Assembly: GCA_965202785.1 (NCBI GenBank)
Contig: OZ241855.1
Coordinates: 869,088 to 933,087, forward strand
Length of the DNA: 64,000 nt
Reading direction: 5' to 3'
DNA from: Thermodesulfobacteriota bacterium
Lineage (GTDB): Bacteria; Desulfobacterota_D; UBA1144; Nemesobacterales; Nemesobacteraceae
Part shown: piece by piece, positions 5,010 through 54,046 of the stretch
How positions within the stretch are numbered: position 1 is the first letter of the stretch
How the letters are laid out: each line of letters begins with the position of its first letter
Notes under the pieces: generated by a model
Seen by the model: only the letters and a program-made list of their open reading frames with translations
What the model was told of the DNA's origin: nothing
Databases searched by the model: none
Translations under genes and position numbers: made by a program

Positions 5010-5182
5010 TGGCTAATAGAAGAAATGATAAGAAAGTAAGAGATCTTGTCGAGATGATGCAAGATCCCGAAGGTTCCGGCTACATCGGAAGCGACTGCGA
5101 CACCATGGAACTTTACGAGCAGGAACTTGAGGAGATGGAGGGGGCCGACAGCTTTTACGACGGGGAACTTGATTTCAACTGA
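5010..5182 (+). CDS. Small acidic hypothetical protein (57 aa); uncertain
   Basis: ATG follows a cagggggga RBS-like motif: MANRRNDKKVRDLVEMMQDPEG...DGELDFN. It overlaps the 3' end of mnmG convergently, so it may be spurious. Confidence 0.25.
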
Positions 5183-7071
5183 GCTTCCTGCTCAAGCCCC
5201 CGCGTTTTCCTGATATGAACAAGCAGTACTGATATAGCGGCGGGAGTTATGCCCGAAACCCGACTTGCCTGCCCTACGGATTCGGGTTTTACTCTTGAGA
5301 GTTTCTGAACAATTTCGTTTGAAAGTCCCGGAATGTTTTTGTACTCAAAGGTTTCCGGGATTTTCATATTCTCGAATTTCTGCAATTTCCCGACTTCTTC
5401 TCTCTGCCTTTTTATGTAACCTTCGTATTTTACTTCCATCTCTATCTGCCCACCGAGTTTCGGGGAGATGTCCGGATTCGCTGCGGAGTCTATAAAGCCC
5501 AGCATTTCATACGTGAAACCGGGCCTTCTGAGTATCTCTTTTAGACTCTGGGGCTTTTTGATTCTCTGGGAACCGAGATTCTCGAGAATCTTGTTTGTTT
5601 TCTCGTTTGGAACCACCTTCTCGCTCTCAAGCCTTGCGAGTTCGTTCTCAAGCGCGGTTTTCCTGATGCGAAATTCCTCGATCCGCTCGTCGCTGAGAAG
5701 CCCTATGGAGTGTCCAAGCTCCCCGAGTCTTAAGTCGGCATTGTCCTCCCTCAGTATAAGCCTGTACTCTGCCCTTGAGGTGAACATCCTGTAGGGCTCA
5801 TCGACTCCTTTTGTGACCAGGTCATCAATCAGAATTCCTATGTAGGCCTCCGAGCGTCCGAGCACGAAAGGATCTTTCCCCTTTACCCGAAGCGCCGCGT
5901 TTATTCCCGCTATCAGTCCCTGGCTTGCCGCCTCCTCGTAGCCCGTGGTCCCGTTTACCTGTCCCGCGAAAAATATGTTTTCAAGAAGTTTTGATTCAAG
6001 AGTGGCAGCAAGCTGCGTGGGGTCGAGAAAGTCGTATTCGACTGCGTATCCCGGCCTCATTATTTCCACGTTGCGAAGTCCTTCCATGGTTCTTGAGAAC
6101 TCGTGCTGAACTTCAATGGGAAGGCTGGTTGAAATTCCGTTGGGATAGATTTCGTAAGTATTTCTTCCCTCAGGTTCGAGAAATATCTGGTGGCGGTTCC
6201 GATCGGGAAACTTGACTACCTTGTCTTCTATCGAGGGGCAGTACCTTGGTCCTATTCCCTTTATGAGGCCGGAGTAAAGAGGGGACTTGTCGATGTTTTC
6301 GTTTATAACGCGGTGGGTTTCCTCGTTAGTGTAGGTGATGTAGCACGGCATCTGCTCAGTCGTGATTTCTCCGGCGGAAAAGGAAAAGGGTACGGGGTCC
6401 TCGTCCCCGTCCTGCCTCTCAAGCTTGTCCCACTCGATGGTCCTTCCGTCAAAGCGCGGAGGAGTTCCGGTTTTGAGCCTGCCTGTAGTGAAACCCAGCT
6501 CCGCGAAGGAATTCGATATGGCTCCCGCGGCGGCTTCCCCCGCGCGGCCGGACGAAATCCGCGTAAGGCCTATGTGTATGAGTCCACCGGGAAAAGTTCC
6601 AGGGGTAACCACGACGGTATCTGAAAAAAATCTTTCCCCGAGGGCGGTCTTAACCCCCGCGACTTTCTTGCCGTCAACCAGAAACTCCTCGACCATCGCC
6701 TGTTTTATCTCTATATTCGCTTCGCTCTCAAGAGCCTTTTTCATGTAGGTTCTGTAGCTCTGGCGGTCGGCCTGTATTCTGGTTGCCTGCACCGCCGCTC
6801 CCTTCCGGGTGTTGAGTCTCCTGAACTGTATGGCCGCGGTGTCTGCGGCTTTCCCCATTTCTCCGCCCAGTGCGTCTATTTCCTTTACAAGGTGACCTTT
6901 TCCGACACCCCCTATTGAAGGATTGCACGACATAAGTCCGATTGTGTCTATGTTCGCCGTGAGAACCAGGGTCGTACAGCCCATCCTTGCCGCGGCGAGT
7001 GCCGCCTCGCAGCCCGCATGGCCGGCTCCGATCACTATCACTTCGTATTTTTTTGAACTTATAAGAGACAT
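5155..7071 (-). CDS. mnmG: tRNA uridine-5-carboxymethylaminomethyl(34) synthesis enzyme MnmG (GidA)
   Basis: N-terminal FAD motif YEVIVIGAGHAGCEAALAAARMG. Full-length 638 aa with GidA family conservation throughout. Confidence 0.95.
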   Translation of the reverse strand: MSLISSKKYEVIVIGAGHAGCEAALAAARMGCTTLVLTANIDTIGLMSCNPSIGGVGKGHLVKEIDALGGEMGKAADTAAIQFRRLNTRKGAAVQATRIQADRQSYRTYMKKALESEANIEIKQAMVEEFLVDGKKVAGVKTALGERFFSDTVVVTPGTFPGGLIHIGLTRISSGRAGEAAAGAISNSFAELGFTTGRLKTGTPPRFDGRTIEWDKLERQDGDEDPVPFSFSAGEITTEQMPCYITYTNEETHRVINENIDKSPLYSGLIKGIGPRYCPSIEDKVVKFPDRNRHQIFLEPEGRNTYEIYPNGISTSLPIEVQHEFSRTMEGLRNVEIMRPGYAVEYDFLDPTQLAATLESKLLENIFFAGQVNGTTGYEEAASQGLIAGINAALRVKGKDPFVLGRSEAYIGILIDDLVTKGVDEPYRMFTSRAEYRLILREDNADLRLGELGHSIGLLSDERIEEFRIRKTALENELARLESEKVVPNEKTNKILENLGSQRIKKPQSLKEILRRPGFTYEMLGFIDSAANPDISPKLGGQIEMEVKYEGYIKRQREEVGKLQKFENMKIPETFEYKNIPGLSNEIVQKLSRVKPESVGQASRVSGITPAAISVLLVHIRKTRGLEQEAQLKSSSPS

Positions 7072-7197
7072 TTTTCTAAATCACCTGAGTGATTTCCAAC
7101 GCCAATTATAACCGCCAAACCTCGACGGATAAACGGGGAAAAGCCTTTGGAACTTTTTTCCTAGAACCTCTTCAGGACTTTAACCGAGAGGTGACTA

Positions 7198-7905
7198 TTA
7201 GCTACAAAACTGCGAGAAGATGCTTTCAATTTTTTCTTCGCTCGCTTCACGTGTAAACAGTGTGAATCTGGATAAGTGCGGGAGCCTTAAAAGTTTGGTT
7301 TGGGCCTTATCGCCGAACTCGATAATATCTGCTGTGTAGTCACCCCAACCTGTTTGCAGCTTGTACGATTTTCTCTCGGGCAACTTATAGACGTTTTCAA
7401 TTATTTTTCTGATGCGTTCTCTAGTTTCTGTATTAATACACACAAATAGCCTCGGCTGAACAGATGTGAGTATTTCCGACCATATTTTCTCTCCGAAATC
7501 AAATGCCTCTTTCTTGTTTTCTAGGTTCTCTAGATTTGGAGACCTGAAAGGTACAAAGTGTCCGGATAAAGTGGATTCTATAAGTTCGCGTTTGTTACCA
7601 GGATAATTTATTTTTTTGTGGATTTTTCCAAACATTTTTTGAATTTGTATTTGTAGCTTGCTCTCCCCTGGCTTCTTGCCGCCCCAGCTTTCATCTAAGT
7701 AGGGACTGCCTTCCTCGCAACTGGGGGAGGGGTGGTCGTGGCGTATTCTGCTCCCGCCTGGATTCAATGTAATAAAGGCTATCTCAGGATTGTCTTTCAA
7801 GACGGACTTTGAGCAAGTCAAGAATCTCCAACCAAGTTCATAGCTATGTTCTTGATAGAAGTTCTTTATTTGTTCTACTGTGTCTTGGAAAATATCCTTC
7901 GACAT
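7198..7905 (-). CDS. Hypothetical protein with a uracil-DNA-glycosylase-superfamily-like motif arrangement
   Basis: FITLNPGGS resembles the GxNPG motif-A variant of MUG/SMUG. HFVPFRSPNLENL...EAFDFGEKIWSEILTSVQPRLFVCINTE matches the family-4 UDG pattern NVVKCRPPxNR...C..YL..ql..i.PkvIvaLG. The C-terminal LPHLSRF matches the HPSxLxR-type motif B. The local composition is AT-richer than its flanks. Confidence 0.4.
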   Translation of the reverse strand: MSKDIFQDTVEQIKNFYQEHSYELGWRFLTCSKSVLKDNPEIAFITLNPGGSRIRHDHPSPSCEEGSPYLDESWGGKKPGESKLQIQIQKMFGKIHKKINYPGNKRELIESTLSGHFVPFRSPNLENLENKKEAFDFGEKIWSEILTSVQPRLFVCINTETRERIRKIIENVYKLPERKSYKLQTGWGDYTADIIEFGDKAQTKLLRLPHLSRFTLFTREASEEKIESIFSQFCS

Positions 7906-8030
7906 TTTGCTTGGATATTATACACAGCTAGGGTGTTCGTGGGATAAAACTTAGGATATTTCAATGGAAATTGTGCTTCTTTTGCGCTTTAAAATTGACC
8001 GAACTATGCGAAATTGTTAAAATTTTGAAA

Positions 8031-9134
8031 ATGATTTCTTCTCAATTCTCAGAATTTGTATCTTCAGTTAAAGACAAACTTGGGAAAAATGTCTACGAGA
8101 ACGAGGCTACGGTCAGCATGATGATAGTTCTGCCCGTTCTTAAGCATTTGGGCTGGCCAGCGGACAACCCTTCGTATGTATGCCCCGAGTATCGGCTCCA
8201 AGGGCGTAAGGTTGATTACGGTCTCAAGATATCCGAGGGCAAGGAAGAGGGTTTGCGATGCATAATAGAGGTTAAGGCCGTAGGAAATATAGTGGAAGCA
8301 GACCGCCAGCTTTTTGAGTATGCGTTTCACGCTGGCACGCCTCTGGCAATTCTTACTGACGGAAAACTGTGGAGATTCTATCTGCCCCTTGCCGCCGGGA
8401 AATATAAGGAAAGGCTTGTACGCACTCTTGATTTCGAGGAACACTCAATTGAGGAATTGGGTGAGGGGTTAGTGCGTTATGTTTCCTTTGATAATACGCG
8501 TTCGGGGCAGGCCAAGAAAAACGCGGAGAACGACCTTGATAAACGTATTGCCAAAGATGAGGCGAAGAAAAACATTTCAACTGCTTGGGAGAATCTGCTG
8601 GGTGGAGCTTCCGATAAGCTCGTTAATCTTTTGATTGAGGAAACATCGCTGATTTCATCCGCTCCAGAGAGATCGGACGTGGAGAAGTTTTTGAAGAATT
8701 TCAGAAACGCTGAACGAAGACAAGAGACTCCTCCCGAGATAAAACCGCGCAAGAAAAAGAAACACTGGTCTGAGGATCCTGCGGAGAGGAAGAAGAAAAA
8801 CAAGAAACCTTCTTTTTTCCTTTTGGGCCGAGAGTACAGGGATGAAAAAAACGTAACTTCCGCATTCGTGAAAATCTTTGAAATTCTTGCCGAGCGGGAT
8901 GGAACCTTCCTAGCGCGCTTAGCTCCAGAACTTGCGGGCAGGAAAAACAAACGCCTATCTCGAAATCTCACGGACCTGGGAGATATTGGCAGTAAAGTGG
9001 CCAAGCGATTCCCCGGGGGGTGGTGGTTAAGCACCCATTCGTCAACTGATGGGAAAATCTCTATTTTGCGAAAAGTCTGCAAAGTCGCAGAAATTCCTTT
9101 CGGGAAACCCGGTGGACTTAAAGTCGATTTTTGA
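8031..9134 (+). CDS. HsdR-N / PD-(D/E)xK nuclease-like domain protein with a Lys-rich linker and a C-terminal domain of unknown function
   Basis: VDYGLK...CIIEVKAVGNIVEADRQLFEYA fits the type I R-subunit N-terminal (HSDR_N) D...ExK...Q..Y pattern. A KKKKHWSEDPAERKKKNKK low-complexity segment follows. It is divergent from the 7198..7905 gene. The true start is probably the ATG at 8031, because the upstream TTG at 7971 lacks an RBS. Confidence 0.5.
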   Translation: MISSQFSEFVSSVKDKLGKNVYENEATVSMMIVLPVLKHLGWPADNPSYVCPEYRLQGRKVDYGLKISEGKEEGLRCIIEVKAVGNIVEADRQLFEYAFHAGTPLAILTDGKLWRFYLPLAAGKYKERLVRTLDFEEHSIEELGEGLVRYVSFDNTRSGQAKKNAENDLDKRIAKDEAKKNISTAWENLLGGASDKLVNLLIEETSLISSAPERSDVEKFLKNFRNAERRQETPPEIKPRKKKKHWSEDPAERKKKNKKPSFFLLGREYRDEKNVTSAFVKIFEILAERDGTFLARLAPELAGRKNKRLSRNLTDLGDIGSKVAKRFPGGWWLSTHSSTDGKISILRKVCKVAEIPFGKPGGLKVDF

Positions 9135-9276
9135 CCTGAGTCGCCAAGCAAATTCCTCAACCTAACGCTAGCCTCCCCGTTTTGTTGAATTTGCTGGTGC
9201 TAGTATTATATTTTCCTGTATAGCATAAACTTGGTTTTCAAAAGAAACGGAAATATTTCGGAGGCATTTATAGAAA

Positions 9277-10140
9277 ATGAATACTCTTAAAAGTCTTTTT
9301 CTGCTCGCTTTTCTCTCTGCCATTCTGGTTTGGGTAGGGGGCATGATAGGGGGCAAAAATGGTGCTTTGATAGCACTTGTTCTCGCGGGAGTTATGAATT
9401 TCGTGAGCTACTGGTGGAGCGACAAGATCGTTCTCAAGATGTACAAAGCAAGCGAGGTCGGAAGGGACAACGCGCCTGACCTCTACTCCGATGTCGAGGA
9501 ACTTGCCCAGATAGCGGGACTTCCAATGCCTCGTGTCTACATAATCCCCGAACAGGCCCCGAATGCCTTTGCCACGGGCCGGGACCCTCACCACTCAGCC
9601 GTTGCGGTTACTCAGGGAATCATGCGTCTTTTGAACAGGAACGAACTTAAAGGCGTAATTGCTCATGAGCTTGCCCATATAAAAAACAGAGACATCCTGA
9701 TCGGTTCCGTGGCGGCGACAATCGCCGGCGCTATCACCTATCTTGCCTACATGGCGCAGTTTGCAGCCATTTTCGGAGGAGGGGGAGGAGACAGAAGAGG
9801 CGGAGGGATGCTGGGACTTCTGGCTATGGCCATTATCGCCCCGATGGCGGCAATGATCGTGAGGATGGCCATATCGAGGACCAGAGAATTCGGAGCGGAC
9901 AAGACCGGGGCCGAGATATGCGGAAATCCGCTCTATCTTGCCGGCGCGCTCAGGAAGCTGCAGGCGGGAGCCTCGAGAGTTCCACTGCAGGTAAGCGAGC
10001 AGGCGGCTGAGAGCACGGCTCATATGATGATAGTGAGCCCGATGATCGGGGGAGGTTTCGCAAAGCTTTTCAGCACCCATCCTCCTACGGAAGAGAGAGT
10101 CGCACGGCTTGAAGCGATGGTCGGCGGTGCTTCCCTTTAA
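9277..10140 (+). CDS. htpX: Zinc metalloprotease HtpX
   Basis: [10 protein letters not shown] zincin motif, four TM segments and an M48 family layout. Confidence 0.9.
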
Positions 10141-10172
10141 ACCGGAAGAGAAGACTCTTTGAAAAGGAGCAC

Positions 10173-10889
10173 ATGAAGGCACGACCGCTTATCGGCATAA
10201 CGACTGACCTTGAGGACAAATCAAACTTTATAGAATCCGCCTATTCGAAGGCGGTTGAATTCTACGGTGGCGCCCCGGTTCTTATTCCCACGGTTGCCGA
10301 AGCTTCAAACTCGGATTTTCTGTTCAATATAATCTCCGCAGTCAATGGGCTTTTGATACCGGGTTCCAGGGACATGGACCCGAAGTTCTACGGTGAATCC
10401 CCGCATCCTGCCATAAACCCCATGAGTCCCGAGAGAACGGAAACGGAATTCAGCGTTCTTGGCCTTGCTCTCGAAAAAGACATACCGGTTTTGGGGATAT
10501 GCGGAGGCATGCAGTTCATAAATGTTTTCCGCGGAGGTTCGATACACCAGGACATAAAAGCGCTTCTGCCCGACGCGCTTTGTCACGAAGGGGGCGAGGT
10601 TCACGATGTCACGGTTCTTCCAGACACGGTATTCGGCGGTTTCACGGAAGAAAAGGAATTCGAGATAAAGAGCTACCACCATCAGGCAATAAACAGGGTT
10701 GGAGAGGATCTTAGGGTAAACGCCTTGGCCCCGGACGGAATAGTGGAGGGGTTTGAGTCGGCCGACGGCCGTATCATGGGTTTTCAGTGGCATCCCGAGC
10801 TTGAGCGGACCCGCCTGTCCGAACTGATTTTCACCCGGTTCCTCTCCGAGGCAGCACGGACGGCGGACGGCTCCCCTAGTATCGGGTAA
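10173..10889 (+). CDS. Gamma-glutamyl-gamma-aminobutyrate hydrolase family protein (peptidase C26; class I glutamine amidotransferase-like)
   Basis: GICGGMQ nucleophile elbow plus a downstream His (YHHQAI...FQWHPE). Confidence 0.75.
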   Translation: MKARPLIGITTDLEDKSNFIESAYSKAVEFYGGAPVLIPTVAEASNSDFLFNIISAVNGLLIPGSRDMDPKFYGESPHPAINPMSPERTETEFSVLGLALEKDIPVLGICGGMQFINVFRGGSIHQDIKALLPDALCHEGGEVHDVTVLPDTVFGGFTEEKEFEIKSYHHQAINRVGEDLRVNALAPDGIVEGFESADGRIMGFQWHPELERTRLSELIFTRFLSEAARTADGSPSIG

Positions 10890-10925
10890 TTTTATCTGCG
10901 TATTTTCCCCCGGGGAGCCTTCAAA

Positions 10926-13748
10926 TTGAAGTTCATTAGCATAATAGGTGCGCGGGAGCACAATCTCAAGAACATAGACGTCAAGATACCGAGGCGCAGC
11001 TTCACTGTTGTCACGGGAGTGAGTGGTTCGGGGAAATCTTCTCTGGTTTTCGACATACTTTTTGCCGAGGCGCAGAGAAGATTCATGGAGTCGCTCTCCT
11101 CCTACGCCAGGCAGTTTGTCGAGAAGCTTGACAAGCCGGATGTCGATTTCGTCGAAGGCCTTTCTCCGTCTGTTTCGGTTGATCAGAAGACCTTTCACAG
11201 AAACCCACGCTCGACCGTCGGGACCATAACGGAGATATATGACTACATGCGCGTGCTTTTCTCCGTGGTCGGAGAGCCGCACTGCTATGAGTGCGGCGAG
11301 GAAATATCCTCCCAGACCCCCTCTAGCATGATCGAGAGAATCTGCAAGGAAGCGGGCAGAAAACCCGTGTCCGTATATTCTCCGGTAGTTCAGGGAAGAA
11401 AAGGGATATACAGAAAAGAGCTTGAGGACATGAGGAGGGAGGGTTTCGTCAGGGTTAGAATCGACGGAGAGACCTACGACCTTGAAGACGACATAGAGCT
11501 TTCCCGCAACAAAAAGCACACTATCGAACTTCTGGTGGACAATATCGTTTTGCGCGGGGAGAGTTCGGAAAAAAGACTCTCAGACGCGGTTTCCCTTGCC
11601 CTTAAAAGATCGGGCGGGCTTTTGAAATGCGAGATCGAAGGTGGGAAGATTCTCACTTTCAGCGAACATTTTTCCTGTCCCCGCTGCGCGATAAACTACC
11701 CGGAGATATCCCCTAGGCTTTTCTCCTTTAACAGTCCCTACGGCGCATGCGTGAACTGCCAGGGGCTTGGATTCGAAACGTTTTTCGATCCCGAACTCAT
11801 AGTGGAAGATCCCGGTAAGTCCCTTTGCGAAGGAGCGATCAAGCCATTTGAGGATTCAAAATATGTTGCCCGTATACTCGAGGGGCTCTCCGAGCATTAC
11901 GGGTTTTCACTCGACGTCCCGTTTTCCCGACTCTCCTCTCTGCACAGACAAAAAGTACTCTACGGCTCCGGGACGGAGAATATAAGCTTCAGGAAGGCGA
12001 GGAGGGGGAGGCAAAGGGAATACACCGCGACTTTCCCCGGAATCGTCGGCATGCTTACGGAATGGTACTCGCAGACCAATTCTGAAGAGCTTAGGGAAAA
12101 ACTCTCAAAATACATGAGAACGGTTCCGTGCAGAGAGTGCGACGGATCCAGGCTCAACAAAATCGCCCTTTCCGTGCTTTTCAGGGGAAAGAACATATCG
12201 AATCTTGCCGGTATGGCGGTTTGCGATCTCATACCTTGTTTCGAGTCGCTTGAGCTTTCCGAGAGGGAGAGAAAGATCGCGGGGGAGATAATAAAAGAGA
12301 TATCCTCCCGCCTCGGTTTTCTCGGGGACATAGGGCTTGGCTACGTGAGTCTTGACCGCACGGCTCCGACCCTTTCGGGCGGAGAGGCTCAGAGGGTGAG
12401 GCTCGCAACCCAGGTGGGGTCGAAACTTACGGGAATAACGTACGTGCTCGACGAGCCTTCAATAGGACTTCACCCGAAGGATAACAAAAAGCTCGTTGAG
12501 ACGCTAAAGAGCATAAGGGACATGGGAAACACCGTAATCGTCGTTGAGCATGACGAGGAAACCATAAAAAGCGCAGATTTCGTGCTCGACGTCGGTCCGG
12601 GAGCAGGGGAACTCGGAGGGGAGGTTGTCTGCTCTGGGAGCGTCGGGAGGATCTCCCGGTGTGCCGGTTCGGTTACCGGAAGATATCTTTCGGGCAAAAA
12701 GAAGATCCCGGTGCCCGGCTCAAGACGCTCCTCCGGCACCCGGGTCGGGATTCGGGGGGCTTTCGGGAACAACCTTAGGAAAATTGACGTCGATTTTCCC
12801 CTCGGGACGTTCATATGCGTCACAGGAGTTTCCGGTTCGGGAAAAAGCACCCTCGTTGTTGACACCCTTTATAACGGCCTGTCAAGGAAGCTTAACCGGA
12901 GCAAAAACCGTGCGGCTCCACACGAAGAAATCATCGGCACCGAAAATCTGGACAAGGTCATCAAGGTTGATCAGAGCCCGATAGGCAGAACCCCCAGATC
13001 GAATCCCGCTACCTACACCGGTGTGCTCACTGAGATAAGAAAAATCTTCTCCATGCTTCCAGAGTCGAAGGTGATGGGATACGGGCCGGGCAGGTTCAGC
13101 TTCAATCTTTCCCAAGGAAGTTGTGCGGGTTGCAGGGGAAGCGGAACTGTCAGGATCGAGATGCACTTTCTTCCCGATGTTTACGTTACGTGCGAGGTGT
13201 GCGGAGGAAGGAGGTACAATGACGAGACCTTGGCGATCAAGTACAAGGGAAGGAACATATCGGACGTTCTTGAGATGAATATAAAAGAGGCGGCGGATTT
13301 TTTTGAGAACATACCAAAGATTTCAGGAAAGCTCAGGGTGCTGAACGACGTCGGCCTCGGTTACGTGAGACTCGGGCAGCGGGTAACTACTCTTTCCGGA
13401 GGGGAGGCGCAGCGCATAAAGCTTGCGAGAGAACTTGGAAAAAAAACCTCTGGAAAAACTCTCTACATACTTGACGAACCGTCGGTCGGGCTTCATTTCG
13501 ATGATATACAGAAGCTCGTTTCGGTAATACAAAGACTCGTGGACCTAGGAAACACCGTGGTTGTCATAGAGCATAATCTTGACATCATAAAGTGCGCGGA
13601 CCATGTGATTGATCTCGGTCCTGGGGGCGGAGAGGACGGAGGAGGGCTTGTGGCCTGCGGCACCCCAGAGGAGATATGCGGGGTAAGCGGTTCGCACACG
13701 GCTTTTTATCTTAGAGGTGTTTTAGAAAACGGGATTGCAGGGAGTTAA
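10926..13748 (+). CDS. uvrA: Excinuclease ABC subunit A
   Basis: Two ABC ATPase modules: [10 protein letters not shown] and [10 protein letters not shown] Walker A motifs, and LSGGEAQR signatures twice. Zn-finger cysteines are present. Length 940 aa. TTG start with a GGGGAG RBS. Confidence 0.95.
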
Positions 13749-49256: not shown

Positions 49257-51215
49257 ATGGCAAGTAAAAGAGAATCGCGGATTCTAAAACTGCTCAGTCA
49301 AAAAGAGGGAAGAAGCCTCTCCGAGGGCAATATTCTCCGAGGGCTTGATATGCCCGAGAGAAAAAGAAAAAATCTCCGTGCCGCACTTGAGCGTATGGTT
49401 CTTGAGGGCACGATCAGAAGGACTTCTAAAGGGCGCTACCGCCTCGGAAAATATGAAAAAAAACCCGCCGGGCAAGACCACCGGCGTCCGAATTTTCCCG
49501 GTCACACCTTAAACGGGAACCGGAAAAATATCGGATCGAACGGCCTGTCCAACGGGAACTCCCTGAGGGTTTTGGCCGATCTGCGAAAAACCCCAAAGGG
49601 TTTTGTTGCATGCCCGAGAAAGGCGGAGATTCCCGAGTGTGAGATTGAAAGCAGAGGTGGGGAAAGGAGCTTCTCCGACGGGGAACTCGTGGTTATAGAG
49701 ATTGGACTTGGGAAGACATCGGCGAGAGTGACCGAGCGTCTTGGGGTATCCGGAGAGATTGAAACTGAAAAGAAGGGGATTATCTCCGAGTATGGTCTTC
49801 CGAAGGGTTTTTCGCGCAGCGTGACCAAAGAAGTCGGCAACCTGAGCGCGGAACTTCCAAACGGTGATCTTTCGGCGAGGGTGAATCTTGAGAGGGAAAA
49901 CATTTTCACCATAGACGGGGATGACGCAAAGGATTTTGACGATGCCGTGGGCATAAAAAGAATCCGCAAGGGCAAGGGATACAGACTCTGGGTAAGCATA
50001 GCGGATGTTTCTCATTACGTGCTATCCGGGAGTGCGTGCGATGAGGAGGCCGCGCGCAGGGCTACCAGCACCTATCTCTCGGACAGGGTTATTCCCATGC
50101 TTCCCAAGCGGCTCTCGAATGATCTCTGCAGCCTGCGGCCGAAAAAAAGACGGCTTACCAAAACAGTCGAGATGGATTTTGATTCCTCGGGAAGGCTTAA
50201 GGACTCAAGGATATACAACAGCGTGATCAAAAGCTCTGCGAGACTTACCTATTCCAAGGCCGCGGCCGTTTTGGAAGGAAACAGCACTGCCTCATCCTCG
50301 CTCAGTAAAAGTATAACTTCTTCCCTGATTGTGATGAGAGAGCTCTATGGCAAGCTCAAGGAGCTTAGAATCGGAAAAGGAGGTCTTGACTTTGATTTCC
50401 CCGAGGCCGTGCTTCTTCGCAATTCCTCAGGAGAGGTAAGGGACGTCGACAGGCTTAAGCGAAACACGGCCCACGAGATAATAGAGGAGTTCATGATCAT
50501 GGCCAACTCCGTAGTTGCGGAGTTTGTCTTTAGAAACGGTTTTGAATCGATCTACAGAATTCACGAGCCCCCGGATCCGGATTCAATAAAGCAGCTGCGC
50601 GAAAGCCTTCTCAAAATAGGAATCAAGGCGAACCTGGGAGCAAGAGCAAAACAGCCTGACATCCAGGCGGTGATGAAGACCGCTTCGGGAAGACGGGACC
50701 GGGAGCAGATAAACTTCATGATTCTGCGCGCGCTTAAAAAAGCTGTCTACTCGACAAAGCATATTCCCCATTTCGGTCTTGCGATAGACGATTACACTCA
50801 TTTCACTTCGCCCATAAGAAGATATCCCGATCTTGTTGTTCACAGGATTGTCGACGACATACTGGAGAAAAAAGACCCTTCCTACGATTCTGCTCTTCTC
50901 AAAAAGATCGCCGAACGCTGCTCAATTCTGGAGAGGACGGCCGAGGGTGCGGAACGTCAGTTTATGAACCTCGAGACCGCGAATTTCATGAAAACCCGCG
51001 TGGGCGAAGTCTTCCACGGGAAAATACTCAGCATACATCCCTTCGGAGTCTTCATAGAAATAAAGGAACACTTCGTCGAAGGACTCATCCCCGAGCACTT
51101 TTACAAACACAAGGGCAAGAAAAGAAAGTGGTTTGAACTCGGAGAAGGTGTTCGCGTAAAGCTCGTGTCGGCCGATCTGGAAAGAAGAAGGCTCACCTTT
51201 GATCTGGTATCCTGA
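49257..51215 (+). CDS. rnr: Ribonuclease R
   Basis: N-terminal winged HTH; RNB domain (FTIDGDDAKDFDDAVG); C-terminal S1 (GEVFHGKILSIHPFGVFIEI). 652 aa. Confidence 0.85.
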   Translation: MASKRESRILKLLSQKEGRSLSEGNILRGLDMPERKRKNLRAALERMVLEGTIRRTSKGRYRLGKYEKKPAGQDHRRPNFPGHTLNGNRKNIGSNGLSNGNSLRVLADLRKTPKGFVACPRKAEIPECEIESRGGERSFSDGELVVIEIGLGKTSARVTERLGVSGEIETEKKGIISEYGLPKGFSRSVTKEVGNLSAELPNGDLSARVNLERENIFTIDGDDAKDFDDAVGIKRIRKGKGYRLWVSIADVSHYVLSGSACDEEAARRATSTYLSDRVIPMLPKRLSNDLCSLRPKKRRLTKTVEMDFDSSGRLKDSRIYNSVIKSSARLTYSKAAAVLEGNSTASSSLSKSITSSLIVMRELYGKLKELRIGKGGLDFDFPEAVLLRNSSGEVRDVDRLKRNTAHEIIEEFMIMANSVVAEFVFRNGFESIYRIHEPPDPDSIKQLRESLLKIGIKANLGARAKQPDIQAVMKTASGRRDREQINFMILRALKKAVYSTKHIPHFGLAIDDYTHFTSPIRRYPDLVVHRIVDDILEKKDPSYDSALLKKIAERCSILERTAEGAERQFMNLETANFMKTRVGEVFHGKILSIHPFGVFIEIKEHFVEGLIPEHFYKHKGKKRKWFELGEGVRVKLVSADLERRRLTFDLVS

Positions 51216-51236
51216 CCGTTTTTTCCGGTTTCTTCA

Positions 51237-51266
51237 AAGACTTGCGCTGGGCGAAGTTTTTTAGGG
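51237..51266. terminator. Possible bidirectional terminator between convergent rnr and fic
   Basis: Imperfect hairpin cttgcgctgggcgaag followed by TTTTTT. Confidence 0.3.
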
Positions 51267-51277
51267 TCATTGACGGC

Positions 51278-52399
51278 TTACCTTGAGATAGCATCCGGCA
51301 AGCGGTAGCTTGTGCTTCGTCCGCCACCGGGGTTCTGAATAAAAATCCCGCGTGACTTTAGGTCTTGGATATCCCTTAGTGCCGTGTCGGGAGAGCACTT
51401 GGCCAGTTTAGCATATTTTGAGGTATTCATATGCCCTTTAAAACCATCTTCTAGCATGCGATTAATAATCAGACGCTGACGTTCATTGACAGGTCGCCGA
51501 TTAACTTTTTCCCATAGTTGCGCTTTAAACAAGACAGCGCTCAGTGCCTCTTCGGCGTTGGCAATAGCGCGGCCGAAGCAATCCAAGAACCATTCAAGCC
51601 AACCCGTTACCTCCGGCGCGCTGCGCTGCTGCTTTTCCAGTTGGTCATAATAATCCTTACGCTCAGATTCAAATTGCGATGAAAGGCTGTAAAAGCGGTG
51701 CGGCATGCCGTCAGCGCGCGCCAGGGCCATATCGGCAATCGCTCTACCAATACGTCCATTACCATCTTCAAATGGATGAACCGTCACAAACCACAAATGA
51801 GCAATACCGGCTCTGAGCACAGGGTCAGTATCATCTTTGCTCTCAAACCATGCCAGAAACTCTGTCATCTCATGCTCAAGACGCTCCGCATCCGGGGCTT
51901 CAAAATGAACTTTTTCACGTCCAATAGGGCCAGAAACCACTTGCATTGAACCTGATTCCGCGGAGCGCCATCCACCGACTGCGATACGACGCATGCCGCT
52001 ACGACCAGTTGAAAATAGCGCGGCATGCCAGTCAAACAGCCTCTCTTTTGTTAAGGGTTTGGCAGATTGCTGAGTCGCATCCAGCATGATTTCGACAATC
52101 CCTTCGACATCTCGGTTCACTGGCACGGGGCTAGCGATATGAATGCCCAGTCGGCGGGCGATTGACGAACGAACCTCTCGGGGATTCAGATTTTCCCCCT
52201 CGATGGCCGATGATTTAACAACGTCGCTTGTCAAAGTGCTTAGACTTGCTTCTCTCTTCAGTTCAAAACCTAATCCTTCCATTCTGCCTAATAAACGGCC
52301 CTGACGGTGCCGAATATCTGCAAGCTTAGAAGCGAGTTTTCCGCTGTCCCAAGTGAAGTCCGGCCAACTCTGATGTTTGTATATCCACATGTTATTCAC
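51278..52399 (-). CDS. Fic family protein (AMPylase/adenylyltransferase type) with C-terminal winged HTH
   Basis: Fic motif HPFEDGNGRIGR. The N-terminal SSAIEGEN (Fic_N / inhibitory [S/T]xxxE[G/N]-like) region. 373 aa. AT-rich. Confidence 0.85.
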   Translation of the reverse strand: MNNMWIYKHQSWPDFTWDSGKLASKLADIRHRQGRLLGRMEGLGFELKREASLSTLTSDVVKSSAIEGENLNPREVRSSIARRLGIHIASPVPVNRDVEGIVEIMLDATQQSAKPLTKERLFDWHAALFSTGRSGMRRIAVGGWRSAESGSMQVVSGPIGREKVHFEAPDAERLEHEMTEFLAWFESKDDTDPVLRAGIAHLWFVTVHPFEDGNGRIGRAIADMALARADGMPHRFYSLSSQFESERKDYYDQLEKQQRSAPEVTGWLEWFLDCFGRAIANAEEALSAVLFKAQLWEKVNRRPVNERQRLIINRMLEDGFKGHMNTSKYAKLAKCSPDTALRDIQDLKSRGIFIQNPGGGRSTSYRLPDAISR

Positions 52400-52619
52400 C
52401 GTATTATTTGCAGTGATTATAACCTTGTTCTCCGTAGAAGCAAGAAAAATTGCCGCAAAATATGCGGTGAATGAAATCGCTATTCACCGCATAGCGCCAA
52501 GTTCTCTTGATAGCGTATCCATCCAGCCGGCAGGATGCATCAAATAAAACATAAAATTTGCATGGTAGATTATATTTCAAAGGTTGTAATTTGTATCATT
52601 GCCTATCGTGGAGTATGTG

Positions 52620-53162
52620 ATGGAACTTGAAACACTCTGGCAGAAATATAGAGCTAATATAAAAGCATTTTTACATTCAAGGGTTTCTAATCCAGACGAT
52701 GTTGATGACTTGTTGCAGGAGGTATTAATCAAAACCTACAAAAACCTCGACACGCTTGCCTCAGAAAACAGCATCAAGCCATGGCTGTTCCAGGTTGCAA
52801 ACAATACGATTATTGACTTTTACCGCAAAAAAGGACGTCTGAATAAGTTCATACATGACGACTTTCATTTGGATGAAGAAGATTCTGATACACAAGATGA
52901 GCTTGCGCGGTGCATAGAGTCTTTCATTAAAAACCTGCCACAACAGAATGCAGAACTTTTAACAGTTATTGATATAAAAGGTCGATCGCAAAAAGAGTAT
53001 GCAGAGGAGACAGGCGTTAGTTATTCCACACTTAAATCCCGTGTGCAAAAAAGCCGAGATTTGTTGCGAAAGCTCTTTGATGATTGCTGTCATTTATCTT
53101 TTGACCAATTTGGCAGAGTTATTGAATACACTCCAAAGTCAGGCGATTGTAAAAATTGTTAA
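52620..53162 (+). CDS. ECF-type sigma-70 family RNA polymerase sigma factor (SigZ-like) with a C-terminal Cys-rich extension
   Basis: Region 2 (DDLLQEVLIKTYKNL...PWLFQVANNTIIDFYRKK) and region 4 (AELLTVIDIKGRSQKEYAEETGVSYSTLKSRVQKSRDLLRK) are recognisable. A C-terminal tail CCHLSFDQFGRVIEYTPKSGDCKNC follows. GGAG RBS. Confidence 0.8.
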   Translation: MELETLWQKYRANIKAFLHSRVSNPDDVDDLLQEVLIKTYKNLDTLASENSIKPWLFQVANNTIIDFYRKKGRLNKFIHDDFHLDEEDSDTQDELARCIESFIKNLPQQNAELLTVIDIKGRSQKEYAEETGVSYSTLKSRVQKSRDLLRKLFDDCCHLSFDQFGRVIEYTPKSGDCKNC

Positions 53163-53229
53163 GTTTTTTTCGTCTTTTTTGTTTGCTGCACGTCTTACAG
53201 GTAAAGCAACCAAAAAATAGGAGTTAAAG

Positions 53230-53937
53230 ATGATTAAAGTTATCAGCTTCAAAATTTGTCCATTCGTTCAGCGCGTGACTGCTTTGCTTGAAGCTAAGAA
53301 TTTGCCGTATGAACTGGAATACGTTGACCTAGGCAAGAAACCGCAATGGTTTTTAGACATATCACCAACAGGACAAGTTCCTGTGCTGATTACGGAAGAT
53401 GGAACGGCATTATTTGAATCCGATGCTATCGTTGAATATCTGGATGAGGTTTTTGAACCTTTAGAATCCGATCTTACGCCGGAACAACGTGCTCTTGATC
53501 GCGCATGGAACTATCAAGCCACAAAACATTACCTTGTGCAATGTTCTGCACAACGTAGTGCTGATAAAGATACTCTTATAGAGCGTTCAGCAAAATTGGG
53601 TAAAGCGTTTGAAAAAGCCGAAAAAGCTCTGGGCGAAGGTCCATATTTTAAAGGAAAAACATTCAGCAATGTTGATGTTGCCTGGATACCTTTACTTCAT
53701 CGCGCGGCAATTACTGAAAAACATAGCTGCTATGATTTCTTGGCTCAATATCCGAAGGTCAAGGCATGGCAGGCTTCACTTTTAAAAACGGATGTGGTGA
53801 CAAACTCGGTTGCAGATGATTTTGAGAAAGCTTTTACGGGTTTTTATTTATCTGATGAAACTTTTCTGGGTAAATATAAAGAGTGCTCTACAGAGCCATT
53901 TAGTAGAAAATCCTGTGAAGCGTATGAATGTTGCTAG
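53230..53937 (+). CDS. Glutathione S-transferase family protein
   Basis: N-terminal thioredoxin-like GST domain (FKICPFVQRV...PTGQVPVL...ESDAIVEYL) and a helical C-terminal domain. AGGAG RBS. Confidence 0.8.
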   Translation: MIKVISFKICPFVQRVTALLEAKNLPYELEYVDLGKKPQWFLDISPTGQVPVLITEDGTALFESDAIVEYLDEVFEPLESDLTPEQRALDRAWNYQATKHYLVQCSAQRSADKDTLIERSAKLGKAFEKAEKALGEGPYFKGKTFSNVDVAWIPLLHRAAITEKHSCYDFLAQYPKVKAWQASLLKTDVVTNSVADDFEKAFTGFYLSDETFLGKYKECSTEPFSRKSCEAYECC

Positions 53938-54046
53938 GATTTGAATTATGCGGAAATGCATATGACTAAAATCTGATGCGTTAGAATAGAATAAAGCCAT
54001 GTGTTTCCCGTTCTCAGAGTTCGAGAATGTGAACAACTGTACTGAG

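What the first reader, a model, noticed from the sequence alone, without database searches (positions are those of the whole stretch)
7198..9160. AT-richer two-gene islet: a UDG-fold protein divergently paired with an HsdR-N/PD-(D/E)xK nuclease-like protein
This roughly 2-kb block lies between mnmG and htpX and has visibly lower GC than its flanks. It encodes two divergently transcribed proteins with no close housekeeping analogue. The first has a uracil-DNA-glycosylase-superfamily motif arrangement: GxNPG-like FITLNPGGS, a family-4-like CRPP...PxxIVxLG segment, and an HPS-like C-terminal motif. The second has an N-terminal type-I-restriction-R-subunit-like PD-(D/E)xK module (D...EVK...Q..Y), an extremely Lys-rich linker, and an uncharacterised C-terminal domain of about 150 aa. 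Pairing a base-lesion or base-modification reader (UDG fold) with a nuclease module is the logic of modification-dependent restriction and other anti-phage systems. A UDG-like plus HsdR-N pair would be an uncharacterised candidate defence or DNA-surveillance module. This is a hypothesis drawn from domain logic and composition only.
Basis: partly seen in the sequence, partly recalled or inferred. Interest (0 to 1): 0.65.

Follow-up and report, generated by a model that had tools for sequence, protein, structure and literature searches.

The report
Two independent DNA-defence-like genes, not a pair
A low-GC, 2-kb variable spot between two housekeeping genes holds a divergent uracil-DNA-glycosylase-fold protein and a restriction-type nuclease fused to a SeqA-like DNA-binding domain, but they are gained, lost and exchanged independently, so each looks like a stand-alone accessory (probably anti-phage) gene, not a two-gene system.

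Summary
Window 7072-9276 is a low-GC islet (43.5% vs 49.8%) between mnmG and htpX, with two divergent intact genes.

- **Gene A (7198-7905, minus strand):** its AlphaFold model (pLDDT 96) matches only uracil-DNA-glycosylase (UDG) superfamily structures. It has an N-type motif 1 (TLNPGG) and an H-type motif 2 (PHLS).
- **Gene B (true start 8031, to 9134):** it has an HsdR-N-type PD-(D/E)xK nuclease domain with invariant E25/D62/E80/K82/Q93/Y97. A helical region and a disordered Lys-rich linker follow.

The pairing idea fails its own refutation test.
- None of 12 distinct A-family loci outside Dadabacteria has B within 8 kb.
- None of 3 distinct B loci has A.
- Across 10 related Dadabacteria genomes at this same site: 4 have both intact, 2 A only, 2 B only, 2 neither. 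The disrupted copies have IS insertions and frameshifts.
- In one relative, A and B have discordant synonymous divergence.

Best reading: an accessory-gene hotspot holding two independent single-gene modules. A is a candidate Brig-like defence glycosylase, and its family often sits in defence or mobile islands. B is a candidate modification-directed (type IV-like) nuclease. Both functions are inferred, not shown.

The parts
7072..9276 (.). Low-GC variable islet between mnmG (5155-7071, -) and htpX (9277-10140, +). It is an accessory-gene hotspot in this Dadabacteria lineage.
   Evidence: GC is 0.435 against 0.498, in the lowest 1.6% of 2.2-kb windows. In 9 related genomes the same site holds A with or without B, toxin-antitoxin pairs and IS elements.
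7198..7905 (-). Gene A: a 235-aa divergent UDG-superfamily protein and candidate monofunctional DNA glycosylase.
   Evidence: AF2 model has pLDDT 96 and pTM 0.92. Foldseek PDB top hits are 4zby, SMUG1, TDG, MUG and UdgX at E from 1e-4 and TM 0.4-0.54. The family has 1257 50%-identity cluster representatives. dN/dS is 0.06-0.15.
7753..7770 (-). A residues 46-51, TLNPGG: UDG motif 1 (water-activating loop) with Asn, as in MUG/TDG/SMUG1 and Brig1.
   Evidence: The motif follows strand 42-46 of the model. L47, P49 and G51 are invariant; T46, N48 and G50 are conserved at 90% or more.
7270..7281 (-). A residues 209-212, PHLS: UDG motif 2-like loop (HPS-type).
   Evidence: The motif follows strand 203-208. 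P209 is invariant; H210, L211 and S212 are conserved at 90% or more.
7112..7128 (-). Terminator-like hairpin between the stop of A and the start of mnmG.
   Evidence: Consensus scan only; weak evidence.
7906..8030 (.). Divergent intergenic region with a sigma-70-like site at 7995-8023 (+) (TTGACC-17-TAAAAT, TG-extended) just upstream of B's ATG.
   Evidence: This is a consensus match only, and the number of sites found is no higher than in shuffles.
8031..8450 (+). B residues 1-140: HsdR-N/COG2810-type PD-(D/E)xK nuclease domain with catalytic E25, D62, E80-x-K82 and Q93...Y97.
   Evidence: Pfam HSDR_N scores 28 bits against a 25.1 cutoff, and 62/62 homologs match. The catalytic residues are invariant in 61-62 of 62 sequences. 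Foldseek hits are 3h1t HsdR fragment, BpuSI and DrdV.
8451..8723 (+). B residues 141-231: helical region, including a helix spanning residues 160-191, with no family match.
   Evidence: DSSP of the model. There is no Pfam hit at E up to 10 apart from noise.
8724..8792 (+). B residues 232-254: Lys-rich, predicted disordered linker, variable in length and sequence across the family.
   Evidence: pLDDT is below 50. The alignment is gap-rich and unconserved here.
8802..9134 (+). B residues 258-367 plus stop: SeqA-C-terminal-like DNA-binding domain.
   Evidence: Pfam SeqA E is 1.7e-4 on the isolated domain. 31/62 homologs hit SeqA, best 5.6e-6. The family profile against PDB SeqA gives E 1.2e-4. 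Foldseek to 1lrr_A gives rmsd 1.9 A over 90 columns and TM(target) 0.64. In the DNA-reading loop, T335, [N/H]336 and S338 align to SeqA T149, N150 and N152, and R304 aligns to R116.
9147..9195 (+). AT-rich inverted repeat just after B's stop; a possible terminator.
   Evidence: Inverted repeat I4: 14-nt arms, 86% complementary; weak evidence.

Best explanation
The islet is a variable accessory-gene hotspot between mnmG and htpX in a Dadabacteria lineage. It happens to hold two unrelated, self-sufficient single-gene modules.

**Gene A.** A is a divergent UDG-superfamily enzyme. The inferred mechanism is that it flips a base out of duplex DNA into a pocket and hydrolyses the N-glycosidic bond, leaving abasic sites. 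The pocket would be built by the TLNPGG loop (Asn48), the VPFRS strand, the family-specific SCExGxxYxxExW insert and the PHLS loop. Its target is most likely a non-canonical or modified base in foreign DNA, as for Brig1, Brig2 and Brig3.

**Gene B.** B is a stand-alone PD-(D/E)xK endonuclease. The inferred mechanism is that its C-terminal SeqA-like domain reads a DNA mark or site, plausibly adenine-methylated DNA, and tethers the nuclease through a flexible Lys-rich linker. That would make it a type IV or type IIM-like restriction enzyme with no cognate methyltransferase.

**Shown versus inferred.** Shown: the folds, the intact catalytic motifs, purifying selection, independent distribution, and the hotspot behaviour. 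Inferred: glycosylase and nuclease activity, the substrates, and a defence role.
For: **Folds and motifs.**

**Independence of A and B.**
- 12 distinct A-family loci outside Dadabacteria (14 loci fetched, L011-L019 and L024-L028; L015/L016 and L017/L019 are repeats) have no B within about 8 kb.
- 3 distinct B-family loci have no A.
- Among the window plus 9 related genomes, 4 have both intact, 2 have A only (L001, L004), 2 have B only (A frameshifted in L006, IS-split in L008), and 2 have neither (L007, L009).

**Exchange at the site.** dS of A is 0.98-3.4 and of B 1.6-2.2, against 0.15-0.78 for the flanking genes. In L003, B has dS 0.35, like the flanks, while A has 2.0. dN/dS is 0.06-0.17, so both are functional under purifying selection.

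**Accessory or defence flavour of the A family.** Neighbours include:
- ThsB-TIR, a caspase and NERD (L014);
- a NACHT protein and an integrase on a plasmid (L024);
- a WYL regulator (L017);
- toxin-antitoxin pairs, RES, a reverse transcriptase and transposases (L012);
- type I RM fragments, AbiEii and AAA_13 (L027);
- SIR2, GmrSD and N6-methyltransferases (L028).

**Precedent.** Brig1, Brig2 and Brig3 are divergent UDG-superfamily defence glycosylases. Brig1's best structural match is 4ZBY, the same as A's, and Brig2 homologues sit in A/T-rich regions (PMC11078745; bioRxiv 10.1101/2025.10.29.685425; bioRxiv 10.64898/2026.02.25.707755).

**B as a solo gene.** It has no adjacent methyltransferase in 4 different contexts. 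JGI names some homologs 'predicted type IV restriction endonuclease'.
Against: - No biochemical or phage-challenge data exist for either family.
- PADLOC has no significant hit for either protein.
- A shows no sequence relationship to Brig1 beyond the LNPG motif (hhalign probability 1.7%).
- Foldseek TM-scores for A are only 0.4-0.54, so the pocket and substrate cannot be read off.
- 4 of 12 distinct A-family contexts (L011, L013, L025 and arguably L026) show little or no defence signal, and no control set of neighbourhoods was scored.
- SeqA binds hemimethylated GATC without cutting. In B, the two base-reading Asn of SeqA are only partly kept (N/H and S), so neither methyl dependence nor sequence specificity is established.
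- B homologs in L021 and L022 sit among housekeeping genes with no defence neighbours.
- Adjacency of A and B recurs in about 13 Dadabacteria contigs (matching contig lengths). Some functional interplay in this lineage therefore cannot be excluded.
Confidence: 0.6

Rival explanations
1. One reading: A and B are a cooperating two-gene system. The glycosylase recognises or removes a modified base, and the nuclease then cleaves at or near the lesion.
For: They are adjacent and divergently transcribed with a shared 125-bp control region. The same arrangement recurs in L002, L003 and L005 and in about 13 contig-length-matched Dadabacteria contigs, including adjacent locus tags F4X55_06740/06745.
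Against: No co-occurrence was found in 12 distinct A loci and 3 distinct B loci outside the lineage. A-only and B-only states exist in close relatives. Synonymous divergence is discordant in L003. In L007 and L008 a toxin-antitoxin pair sits between the two genes. The B family (683 or more hits) is several times larger than the A family in the same search (114 hits).
Confidence: 0.1
2. Both are dispensable housekeeping DNA-maintenance proteins. A would be a back-up repair glycosylase for uracil, hypoxanthine or mismatches. B would be a SeqA- or MutH-like factor acting on the host's own hemimethylated DNA after replication.
For: UDG-superfamily enzymes are classically repair enzymes, and Brig1 and Brig3 keep residual uracil activity. 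SeqA-C recognises hemimethylated host DNA. Some B homologs sit among housekeeping genes. The islet lies next to uvrA and mnmG.
Against: Composition is atypical. Close relatives show presence/absence, IS disruption and pseudogenes. The alleles are far older than the flanking genome. The A family is frequent in defence or mobile islands and occurs on plasmids. B lacks SeqA's N-terminal oligomerisation domain. GATC is not notably depleted or enriched in the window (observed/expected 0.81).
Confidence: 0.2
3. The genes are decaying remnants of a past insertion with no current function.
For: Four of ten related genomes carry a disrupted A, and two carry a disrupted B.
Against: In the window both ORFs are full length with all conserved motifs. 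dN/dS between intact copies is 0.06-0.17.
Confidence: 0.05

Closest known systems
Brig1 / Brig2 / Brig3 antiviral DNA glycosylases (UDG superfamily)
   Same: Like A, these are single-gene proteins of about 230-260 aa with a divergent UDG fold. Brig1's best structural match is S. tokodaii family 4 UDG 4ZBY, the same as for A. Brig1 carries an LNPG motif 1, as A does. They sit in defence islands or A/T-rich, mobile regions.
   Different: There is no detectable sequence homology to Brig1 (hhalign probability 1.7%, 15 columns). The Brig2 and Brig3 sequences could not be obtained, so membership is untested. A has its own conserved set of residues (WRF, SCExGxxYxxExW, LQxQ, VPFRS, GWG, PHLS). Its substrate is unknown and no phage phenotype is known.
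MUG/TDG (family 2) and SMUG1 (family 3) uracil-DNA glycosylases
   Same: They share the alpha/beta fold, an Asn-type motif 1 (G-I/M-N-P-G against T-L-N-P-G-G), and a His/Asn-P-S-type motif 2.
   Different: Sequence identity is 8-16% and TM only 0.4-0.5. A has an insert of about 25 residues after motif 1 and reads H-L-S instead of H-P-S. Its distribution is accessory, not housekeeping.
Modification-dependent (type IV / IIM) restriction endonucleases built as sensor domain plus nuclease (DpnI and wH-fusion enzymes, MspJI, EVE-HNH VcaM4I)
   Same: B has the same layout: a PD-(D/E)xK catalytic domain, a separate DNA-reading domain and a flexible linker. It is a stand-alone gene without a methyltransferase. 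Background papers were listed.
   Different: B's reading domain is SeqA-C-like, not wH, SRA or PUA. No characterised enzyme with this sensor turned up in the literature searches. Dependence on modification is untested.
E. coli SeqA (replication sequestration protein)
   Same: B's C-terminal domain superposes on SeqA-C at 1.9 A over 90 columns. It keeps the GR(K) and W-W-L-x-T-x-x-S loops that correspond to SeqA's DNA-contacting R116 and T149-N152.
   Different: B has no SeqA N-terminal oligomerisation domain and is fused to a nuclease. N150 becomes N or H, and N152 becomes S. Pfam SeqA scores fall below the gathering cutoff (18.7-22 bits against 25.5).
Type I restriction enzyme HsdR subunit
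   Same: The N-terminal nuclease domain belongs to the same Pfam family, HSDR_N/HSDR_N_2, and has the same D...ExK...QxxxY motif.
   Different: B has no SF2 motor domains and no HsdM/HsdS genes nearby, and is only 367 aa.

Membership tests
UDG superfamily (fold level), gene A | An alpha/beta/alpha fold with a central parallel sheet that matches solved UDG-family structures. | tested here: met
   The model has pLDDT 96. All seven Foldseek PDB hits at E up to 0.001 are UDG family members, and almost all of the top 50 are families 1-5 or UdgX. TM is 0.4-0.54, so this is a distant member. The viral library mainly returns phage UDGs.
UDG superfamily, gene A | Motif 1 (G-x-[D/N/E/Q]-P-[G/Y]) after the first strand and motif 2 (H/N-P-S type) after the last strand. 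| tested here: met
   TLNPGG at residues 46-51 follows strand 42-46. LPHLS at 208-212 follows strand 203-208. Both are the best-conserved positions in 62 homologs. The first Gly is replaced by Thr, and the Pro of HPS by Leu.
UDG superfamily, gene A | A match to Pfam PF03167 at its gathering score. | tested here: not met
   The window protein has no hit at E up to 1. 12 of 62 homologs hit weakly, best E 1.6e-4. PGAP does name one plasmid homolog 'uracil-DNA glycosylase family protein'.
   No Cys column is invariant or nearly invariant. Motif 1 carries Asn, not Glu. No 'CRPP' exists in the sequence.
Brig1 family, gene A | Sequence homology to Brig1 (PSI-BLAST family of PMC11078745). | tested here: not met
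   hhalign of the A-family profile against Brig1 (sequence taken from the paper's supplement) aligns only 15 columns around LNPG, with probability 1.7%. BLASTP gives E 1.4.
Brig2 / Brig3 families, gene A | Sequence homology to Brig2 or Brig3. | not testable with these tools
   The sequences are not in the held text or supplements. No A-family match was found in PDB sequences. Brig3 residue numbers F31/N50/P51 resemble A's F28/N48/P49, but that is only a lead.
DNA glycosylase activity / anti-phage function, gene A | Base excision in vitro and phage restriction in vivo. | not testable with these tools
   This needs experiments.
HSDR_N / PD-(D/E)xK nucleases, gene B | A Pfam match above the gathering score, plus the D...(D/E)xK catalytic triad. 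| tested here: met
   PF04313 scores 28 bits against a 25.1 cutoff, and 62/62 homologs match. D62 and E80 are 62/62 and K82 is 61/62. The structural match is to 3h1t, BpuSI and DrdV.
Type I restriction R subunit (HsdR), gene B | SF2 helicase/translocase domains and HsdM/HsdS partners. | tested here: not met
   B is 367 aa with no helicase domain. Its neighbours are A and htpX.
SeqA, gene B C-terminal domain | A SeqA C-terminal DNA-binding fold. | tested here: met
   Foldseek to 1lrr_A gives rmsd 1.9 A, 90 columns and TM(target) 0.64. The profile against PDB SeqA gives E 1.2e-4. 31/62 homologs hit Pfam SeqA, though all of the window protein's own scores are below the gathering cutoff.
SeqA, gene B | An N-terminal oligomerisation domain and the hemimethylated-GATC-reading residues R116, R118, N150 and N152. 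| tested here: not met
   The N-terminus is a nuclease domain. The R116 position is kept as R or K in 49/62. The R118 position is mostly R, N or K and is not conserved. The N150 position is N in 30 and H in 25 of 62. The N152 position is S in 56/62. SeqA residue roles are from my own knowledge of Guarne et al. 2002.
Type IV (modification-dependent) restriction, gene B | Cleavage that requires modified DNA, with no cognate methyltransferase. | tested here: inconclusive
   No methyltransferase is adjacent in the window or in L020-L022. JGI labels some homologs 'predicted type IV restriction endonuclease'. Dependence on modification cannot be tested here.
   0 of 12 distinct A loci outside the lineage carry B, and 0 of 3 B loci carry A. 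Within the lineage, presence is independent (4 both, 2 A only, 2 B only, 2 neither) and dS is discordant.

The most novel reading that the evidence does not exclude
Each gene founds an uncharacterised class of stand-alone anti-phage enzyme. A would be a new sequence family of Brig-like UDG-fold glycosylases, with more than 1200 cluster representatives, that excises a phage-specific modified base. B would be a type IV/IIM-like restriction endonuclease that uses a SeqA-like domain as its sensor of methylated adenine. The mnmG-htpX site would then be a defence hotspot in Dadabacteria where such genes are swapped.
Probability: 0.35. Interest if true: 0.55.

Novelty: new variant of a known kind. 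Interest (0 to 1): 0.38.

Why it matters
**If A is a defence glycosylase.** It would add a large, widely spread family to the very recent Brig1-3 class: about 1257 50%-identity clusters, found on plasmids and in defence islands. It could also give a new reagent that recognises some modified base.

**If B reads methylated adenine through a SeqA-like domain.** It would be a new sensor type for modification-dependent restriction. It could be useful for mapping m6A, and it would link a replication-control fold to immunity.

**The negative result.** Adjacency plus 'domain logic' was misleading here. Comparative presence/absence and dS analysis show two independent cargo genes sharing a hotspot.

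Tried and rejected
- **Profile libraries for A.** Pfam and NCBIfam gave no hit. PHROGs gave nothing. The only PADLOC hit was an insignificant Dsr2 match at E 0.009.
- **A-family profile against PDB sequences.** No match at E up to 10.
- **Search for related loci.** The single-protein scan of genome contigs then found only the close Dadabacteria relatives.
- **Brig1 homology.** Tested and rejected. Brig2 and Brig3 sequences could not be obtained.
- **Phage and plasmid searches.** A is absent from phages and present on 2 plasmids. For B, only the nuclease domain matches.
- **Fusion partners of long A-family members.** Uninformative: HTH_3 once and EcsC once.
- **Searching with B's C-domain alone.** It returned mainly 90-190-aa proteins or fragments and no alternative nuclease fusions. 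The 'mobile sensor module' idea therefore got no support.
- **Flanking repeats or att sites around the islet.** Only short chance-level repeats.
- **GATC frequency.** Unremarkable, observed/expected 0.81.
- **235-aa ORF at 53230-53937 as a paralog of A.** Checked because it has the same length. It is a GST-like protein, so the idea was rejected.
- **First dN/dS script.** It timed out and was rerun with my own NG86 code.
Full report
**1. What is there**

The window carries mnmG (5155-7071, -), a 235-aa ORF A (7198-7905, -), an ORF B on the opposite strand (7971/8031-9134, +), and then htpX, a glutamine amidotransferase and uvrA.

The stretch 7072-9276 has GC 0.435 against 0.498 for the window. 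Only 1.6% of 2.2-kb windows are as low. GC3 is 0.45 for A and 0.49 for B, against 0.57-0.62 in six flanking genes.

B most likely starts at the ATG at 8031. Homologs start MISSQF, an identical 367-aa protein is on record (P0115), and a sigma-70-like site (TTGACC-17-TAAAAT) lies at 7995-8023.

**2. Gene A**

- **Profile libraries.** No Pfam, NCBIfam or PHROGs model matches the window protein. However, 12 of 62 homologs hit Pfam UDG weakly.
- **Structure.** An AlphaFold2 model built on 62 homologs is very confident (pLDDT 96, pTM 0.92). Against the PDB, its seven hits at E up to 0.001 are all uracil-DNA-glycosylase superfamily members: S. tokodaii family 4 UDG (4zby, E 1e-4) and SMUG1. TDG, MUG, UdgX and UNG follow at weaker E-values. 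TM-scores are 0.4-0.54 and identity is 8-16%. The viral library mainly returns phage UDGs.
- **Conserved positions.** The best-conserved positions map to the two classical UDG loops. TLNPGG (46-51) follows the first strand and carries Asn, as in MUG/TDG/SMUG1 and Brig1. LPHLS (208-212) follows the last strand. There is also a family-specific set: WRF, SCExGxxYxxExW, LQxQ, VPFRS and GWG.
- **Family 4 claim.**
- **Family size.** The family is sizeable. It has 114 hits in the word-indexed search and 1257 50%-identity cluster representatives at E up to 1e-3. Most are solo proteins of 215-250 aa.
- **Existing annotation.** PGAP already calls one plasmid homolog 'uracil-DNA glycosylase family protein', and UniRef names one 'DUF1643 domain-containing'.

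**3. Gene B**

- **Nuclease domain (residues 1-140).** It passes Pfam HSDR_N (28 bits against a 25.1 cutoff). All 62 homologs match HSDR_N and 48 match HSDR_N_2. E25, D62, E80, K82, Q93 and Y97 are invariant in 61-62 of 62 sequences. The model (pLDDT 90) matches an HsdR N-terminal fragment and the BpuSI and DrdV nuclease domains.
- **Middle and linker.** Residues 141-231 are helical with no family match. Residues 232-254 form the Lys-rich linker, which is predicted disordered and is variable across the family.
- **C-terminal domain (residues 258-367).**
  - Pfam SeqA gives E 1.7e-4 on the isolated domain.
  - 31 of 62 homologs hit SeqA, best 5.6e-6.
  - The family profile against PDB SeqA gives E 1.2e-4.
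  - The model superposes on 1lrr_A at 1.9 A over 90 columns.
- **DNA-contact loops.** These are partly kept. The position of R116 is R or K in 49/62. T149 is T in 55/62. N150 is N in 30 and H in 25. N152 is S in 56/62. SeqA residue roles are from my own knowledge of Guarne et al. 2002.
- **What B lacks.** It has no helicase domains and no SeqA N-terminal domain.
- **Family size and naming.** The B family has at least 683 hits, and JGI names some 'predicted type IV restriction endonuclease'.

**4. Is it a pair?**

*Outside the lineage.* I fetched 14 loci with A-family members, which represent 12 distinct contexts: L011-L015, L017, L018 and L024-L028. None has a B homolog within about 8 kb, either by gene call or by tblastn with six diverse B queries. 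Three distinct B-family loci (L020, L021, L022/23) have no A.

*Inside the lineage.* Nine related genomes (flanking proteins 88-99.7% identical) all have the same mnmG-[islet]-htpX layout, but the content differs:

| State at the site | Genomes |
|---|---|
| A and B both intact | window, L002, L003, L005 |
| A only, B cleanly absent | L001, L004 |
| B intact, A frameshifted | L006 |
| B intact, A split by about 5 kb of IS elements | L008 |
| B split by an IS3-type element, A truncated | L007 |
| Both degraded | L009 |

That is 4 both, 2 A only, 2 B only and 2 neither, which is what independence predicts. In L007 and L008 a DinJ/YafQ-like toxin-antitoxin pair lies between the two genes.

*Synonymous divergence.*

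| Gene | dS against the window |
|---|---|
| Flanking genes | 0.15-0.78 |
| A | 0.98-3.4 |
| B in L002 and L005 | 1.6-2.2 |
| B in L003 | 0.35 (like the flanks) |
| A in L003 | 2.0 |

The alleles at this site are therefore much older than the surrounding genome, which points to exchange or long-maintained polymorphism. A and B also have separate histories. dN/dS of 0.06-0.17 shows that both are kept functional.

**5. What each gene most likely does**

*The A family.* Its neighbourhoods are often defence or mobile:
- ThsB-TIR, a caspase and NERD (L014);
- a NACHT protein, an integrase and a type IV secretion system on a Roseibium plasmid (L024);
- a divergent WYL-WCX regulator (L017-19);
- toxin-antitoxin pairs, RES, a reverse transcriptase and transposases (L012);
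- an integrase and a PIN toxin (L015);
- type I RM fragments, DUF559, AbiEii and AAA_13 (L027);
- SIR2, GmrSD and N6-methyltransferases (L028);
- a transposase (L026).

L011, L013 and L025 are uninformative. This is a small sample without a control set.

The literature now contains three divergent UDG-superfamily enzymes that defend against phages by excising modified bases:
- Brig1 acts on alpha-glucosyl-5hmC. It is 261 aa, and its best structural match is 4ZBY, as for A.
- Brig2 acts on modified thymidines. Its homologues lie in A/T-rich regions near mobile elements.
- Brig3 acts on 5hmC.

These come from PMC11078745, bioRxiv 10.1101/2025.10.29.685425 and bioRxiv 10.64898/2026.02.25.707755.

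A works like these by fold, motif 1, size, solo status and context. It is not a Brig1 sequence relative (hhalign probability 1.7%). Brig2 and Brig3 could not be compared.

*The B family.* B has the layout of modification-dependent restriction enzymes: a catalytic PD-(D/E)xK domain, a linker and a separate DNA-reading domain, with no methyltransferase next door. Its reader domain is SeqA-like, and I found no characterised enzyme with that sensor. One review notes SeqA domains fused to RAMA domains in R-M contexts (PMC4738411). Methyl dependence and target sequence remain inferences.

**6. Rivals**

- **A cooperative pair (about 0.1).** Only lineage-restricted adjacency supports it.
- **Dispensable repair or replication roles (about 0.2).** This fits the ancestry of the folds, but it fits poorly with the composition, the pseudogenisation, the old alleles and the island contexts.
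- **Decaying remnants (about 0.05).** The intact motifs and low dN/dS contradict this.

**7. Novelty and score**

The fold assignments are correct but not surprising, since part of the A family is already labelled as UDG family by PGAP. Each gene is an uncharacterised variant of a known kind: Brig-like glycosylases, and sensor-plus-nuclease restriction enzymes. The proposed two-gene system is not supported.

What remains of value is two testable candidate single-gene defence enzymes and a clearly documented accessory-gene hotspot. Interest is 0.38.

Noticed in passing
window 50900-54000: This is the only other strongly low-GC stretch of the window (minimum 0.42). It holds a Fic-motif protein (51278-52399, -, HPFEDGNGRIGR), an ECF-sigma-like protein (52599-53162, +) and a GST-like protein (53230-53937, +). 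It may be a second accessory islet.
   Followed up: partly
L020 7001-11255: In a 3.7-Mb genome, two B-family paralogs flank a FitA-like RHH/PIN toxin-antitoxin pair. The second paralog (9714-11255, 513 aa) carries two tandem SeqA-like C-terminal domains.
   Followed up: partly
L008 2100-8000; L007 5700-8260: The same mnmG-htpX site in relatives holds a DinJ/YafQ-like toxin-antitoxin pair between B and A. IS elements also disrupt the genes: IS110-like and a 501-aa transposase split A in L008, and an IS3-type element splits B in L007.
   Followed up: partly
L017 944-3077 (also L018, L019): A 325-aa A-family variant is divergently paired with a WYL-WCX transcription regulator. The arrangement recurs in contigs from three different samples. 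An ADP-ribosyl-glycohydrolase-domain protein lies 5 kb away, as reported next to Brig1 and Brig3.
   Followed up: no
L025 8001-8639 (Synechocystis sp. PCC 6714 plasmid pSYLB 21427-22065): A full-length A-family homolog (37% identity, 98% coverage) lies in a stretch with no CDS in the plasmid gene table.
   Followed up: no
proteins P0377-P0496: The SeqA-C-like domain of B also occurs as 90-190-aa proteins, some on large contigs (Thermosynechococcus sp. NK55a, Nitrosomonas ureae, Marinospirillum insulare, Nitrospinae). Some sources name them 'negative regulator of replication initiation'. Many others are probably fragments on short contigs.
   Followed up: no
window 8477-9160 (-): A 227-aa antisense ORF lies inside gene B. 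It is Phe/Ser-rich because it is the complement of the Lys-rich linker, so it is probably not a gene. It explains the finding's end coordinate of 9160.
   Followed up: partly
L001-L005 vs window, flanking genes: Synonymous divergence of htpX against L001 and L004 (0.69-0.71) is about twice that of the neighbouring mnmG and uvrA against L001 (0.31). This hints that recombination tracts at the hotspot sometimes extend into htpX.
   Followed up: no
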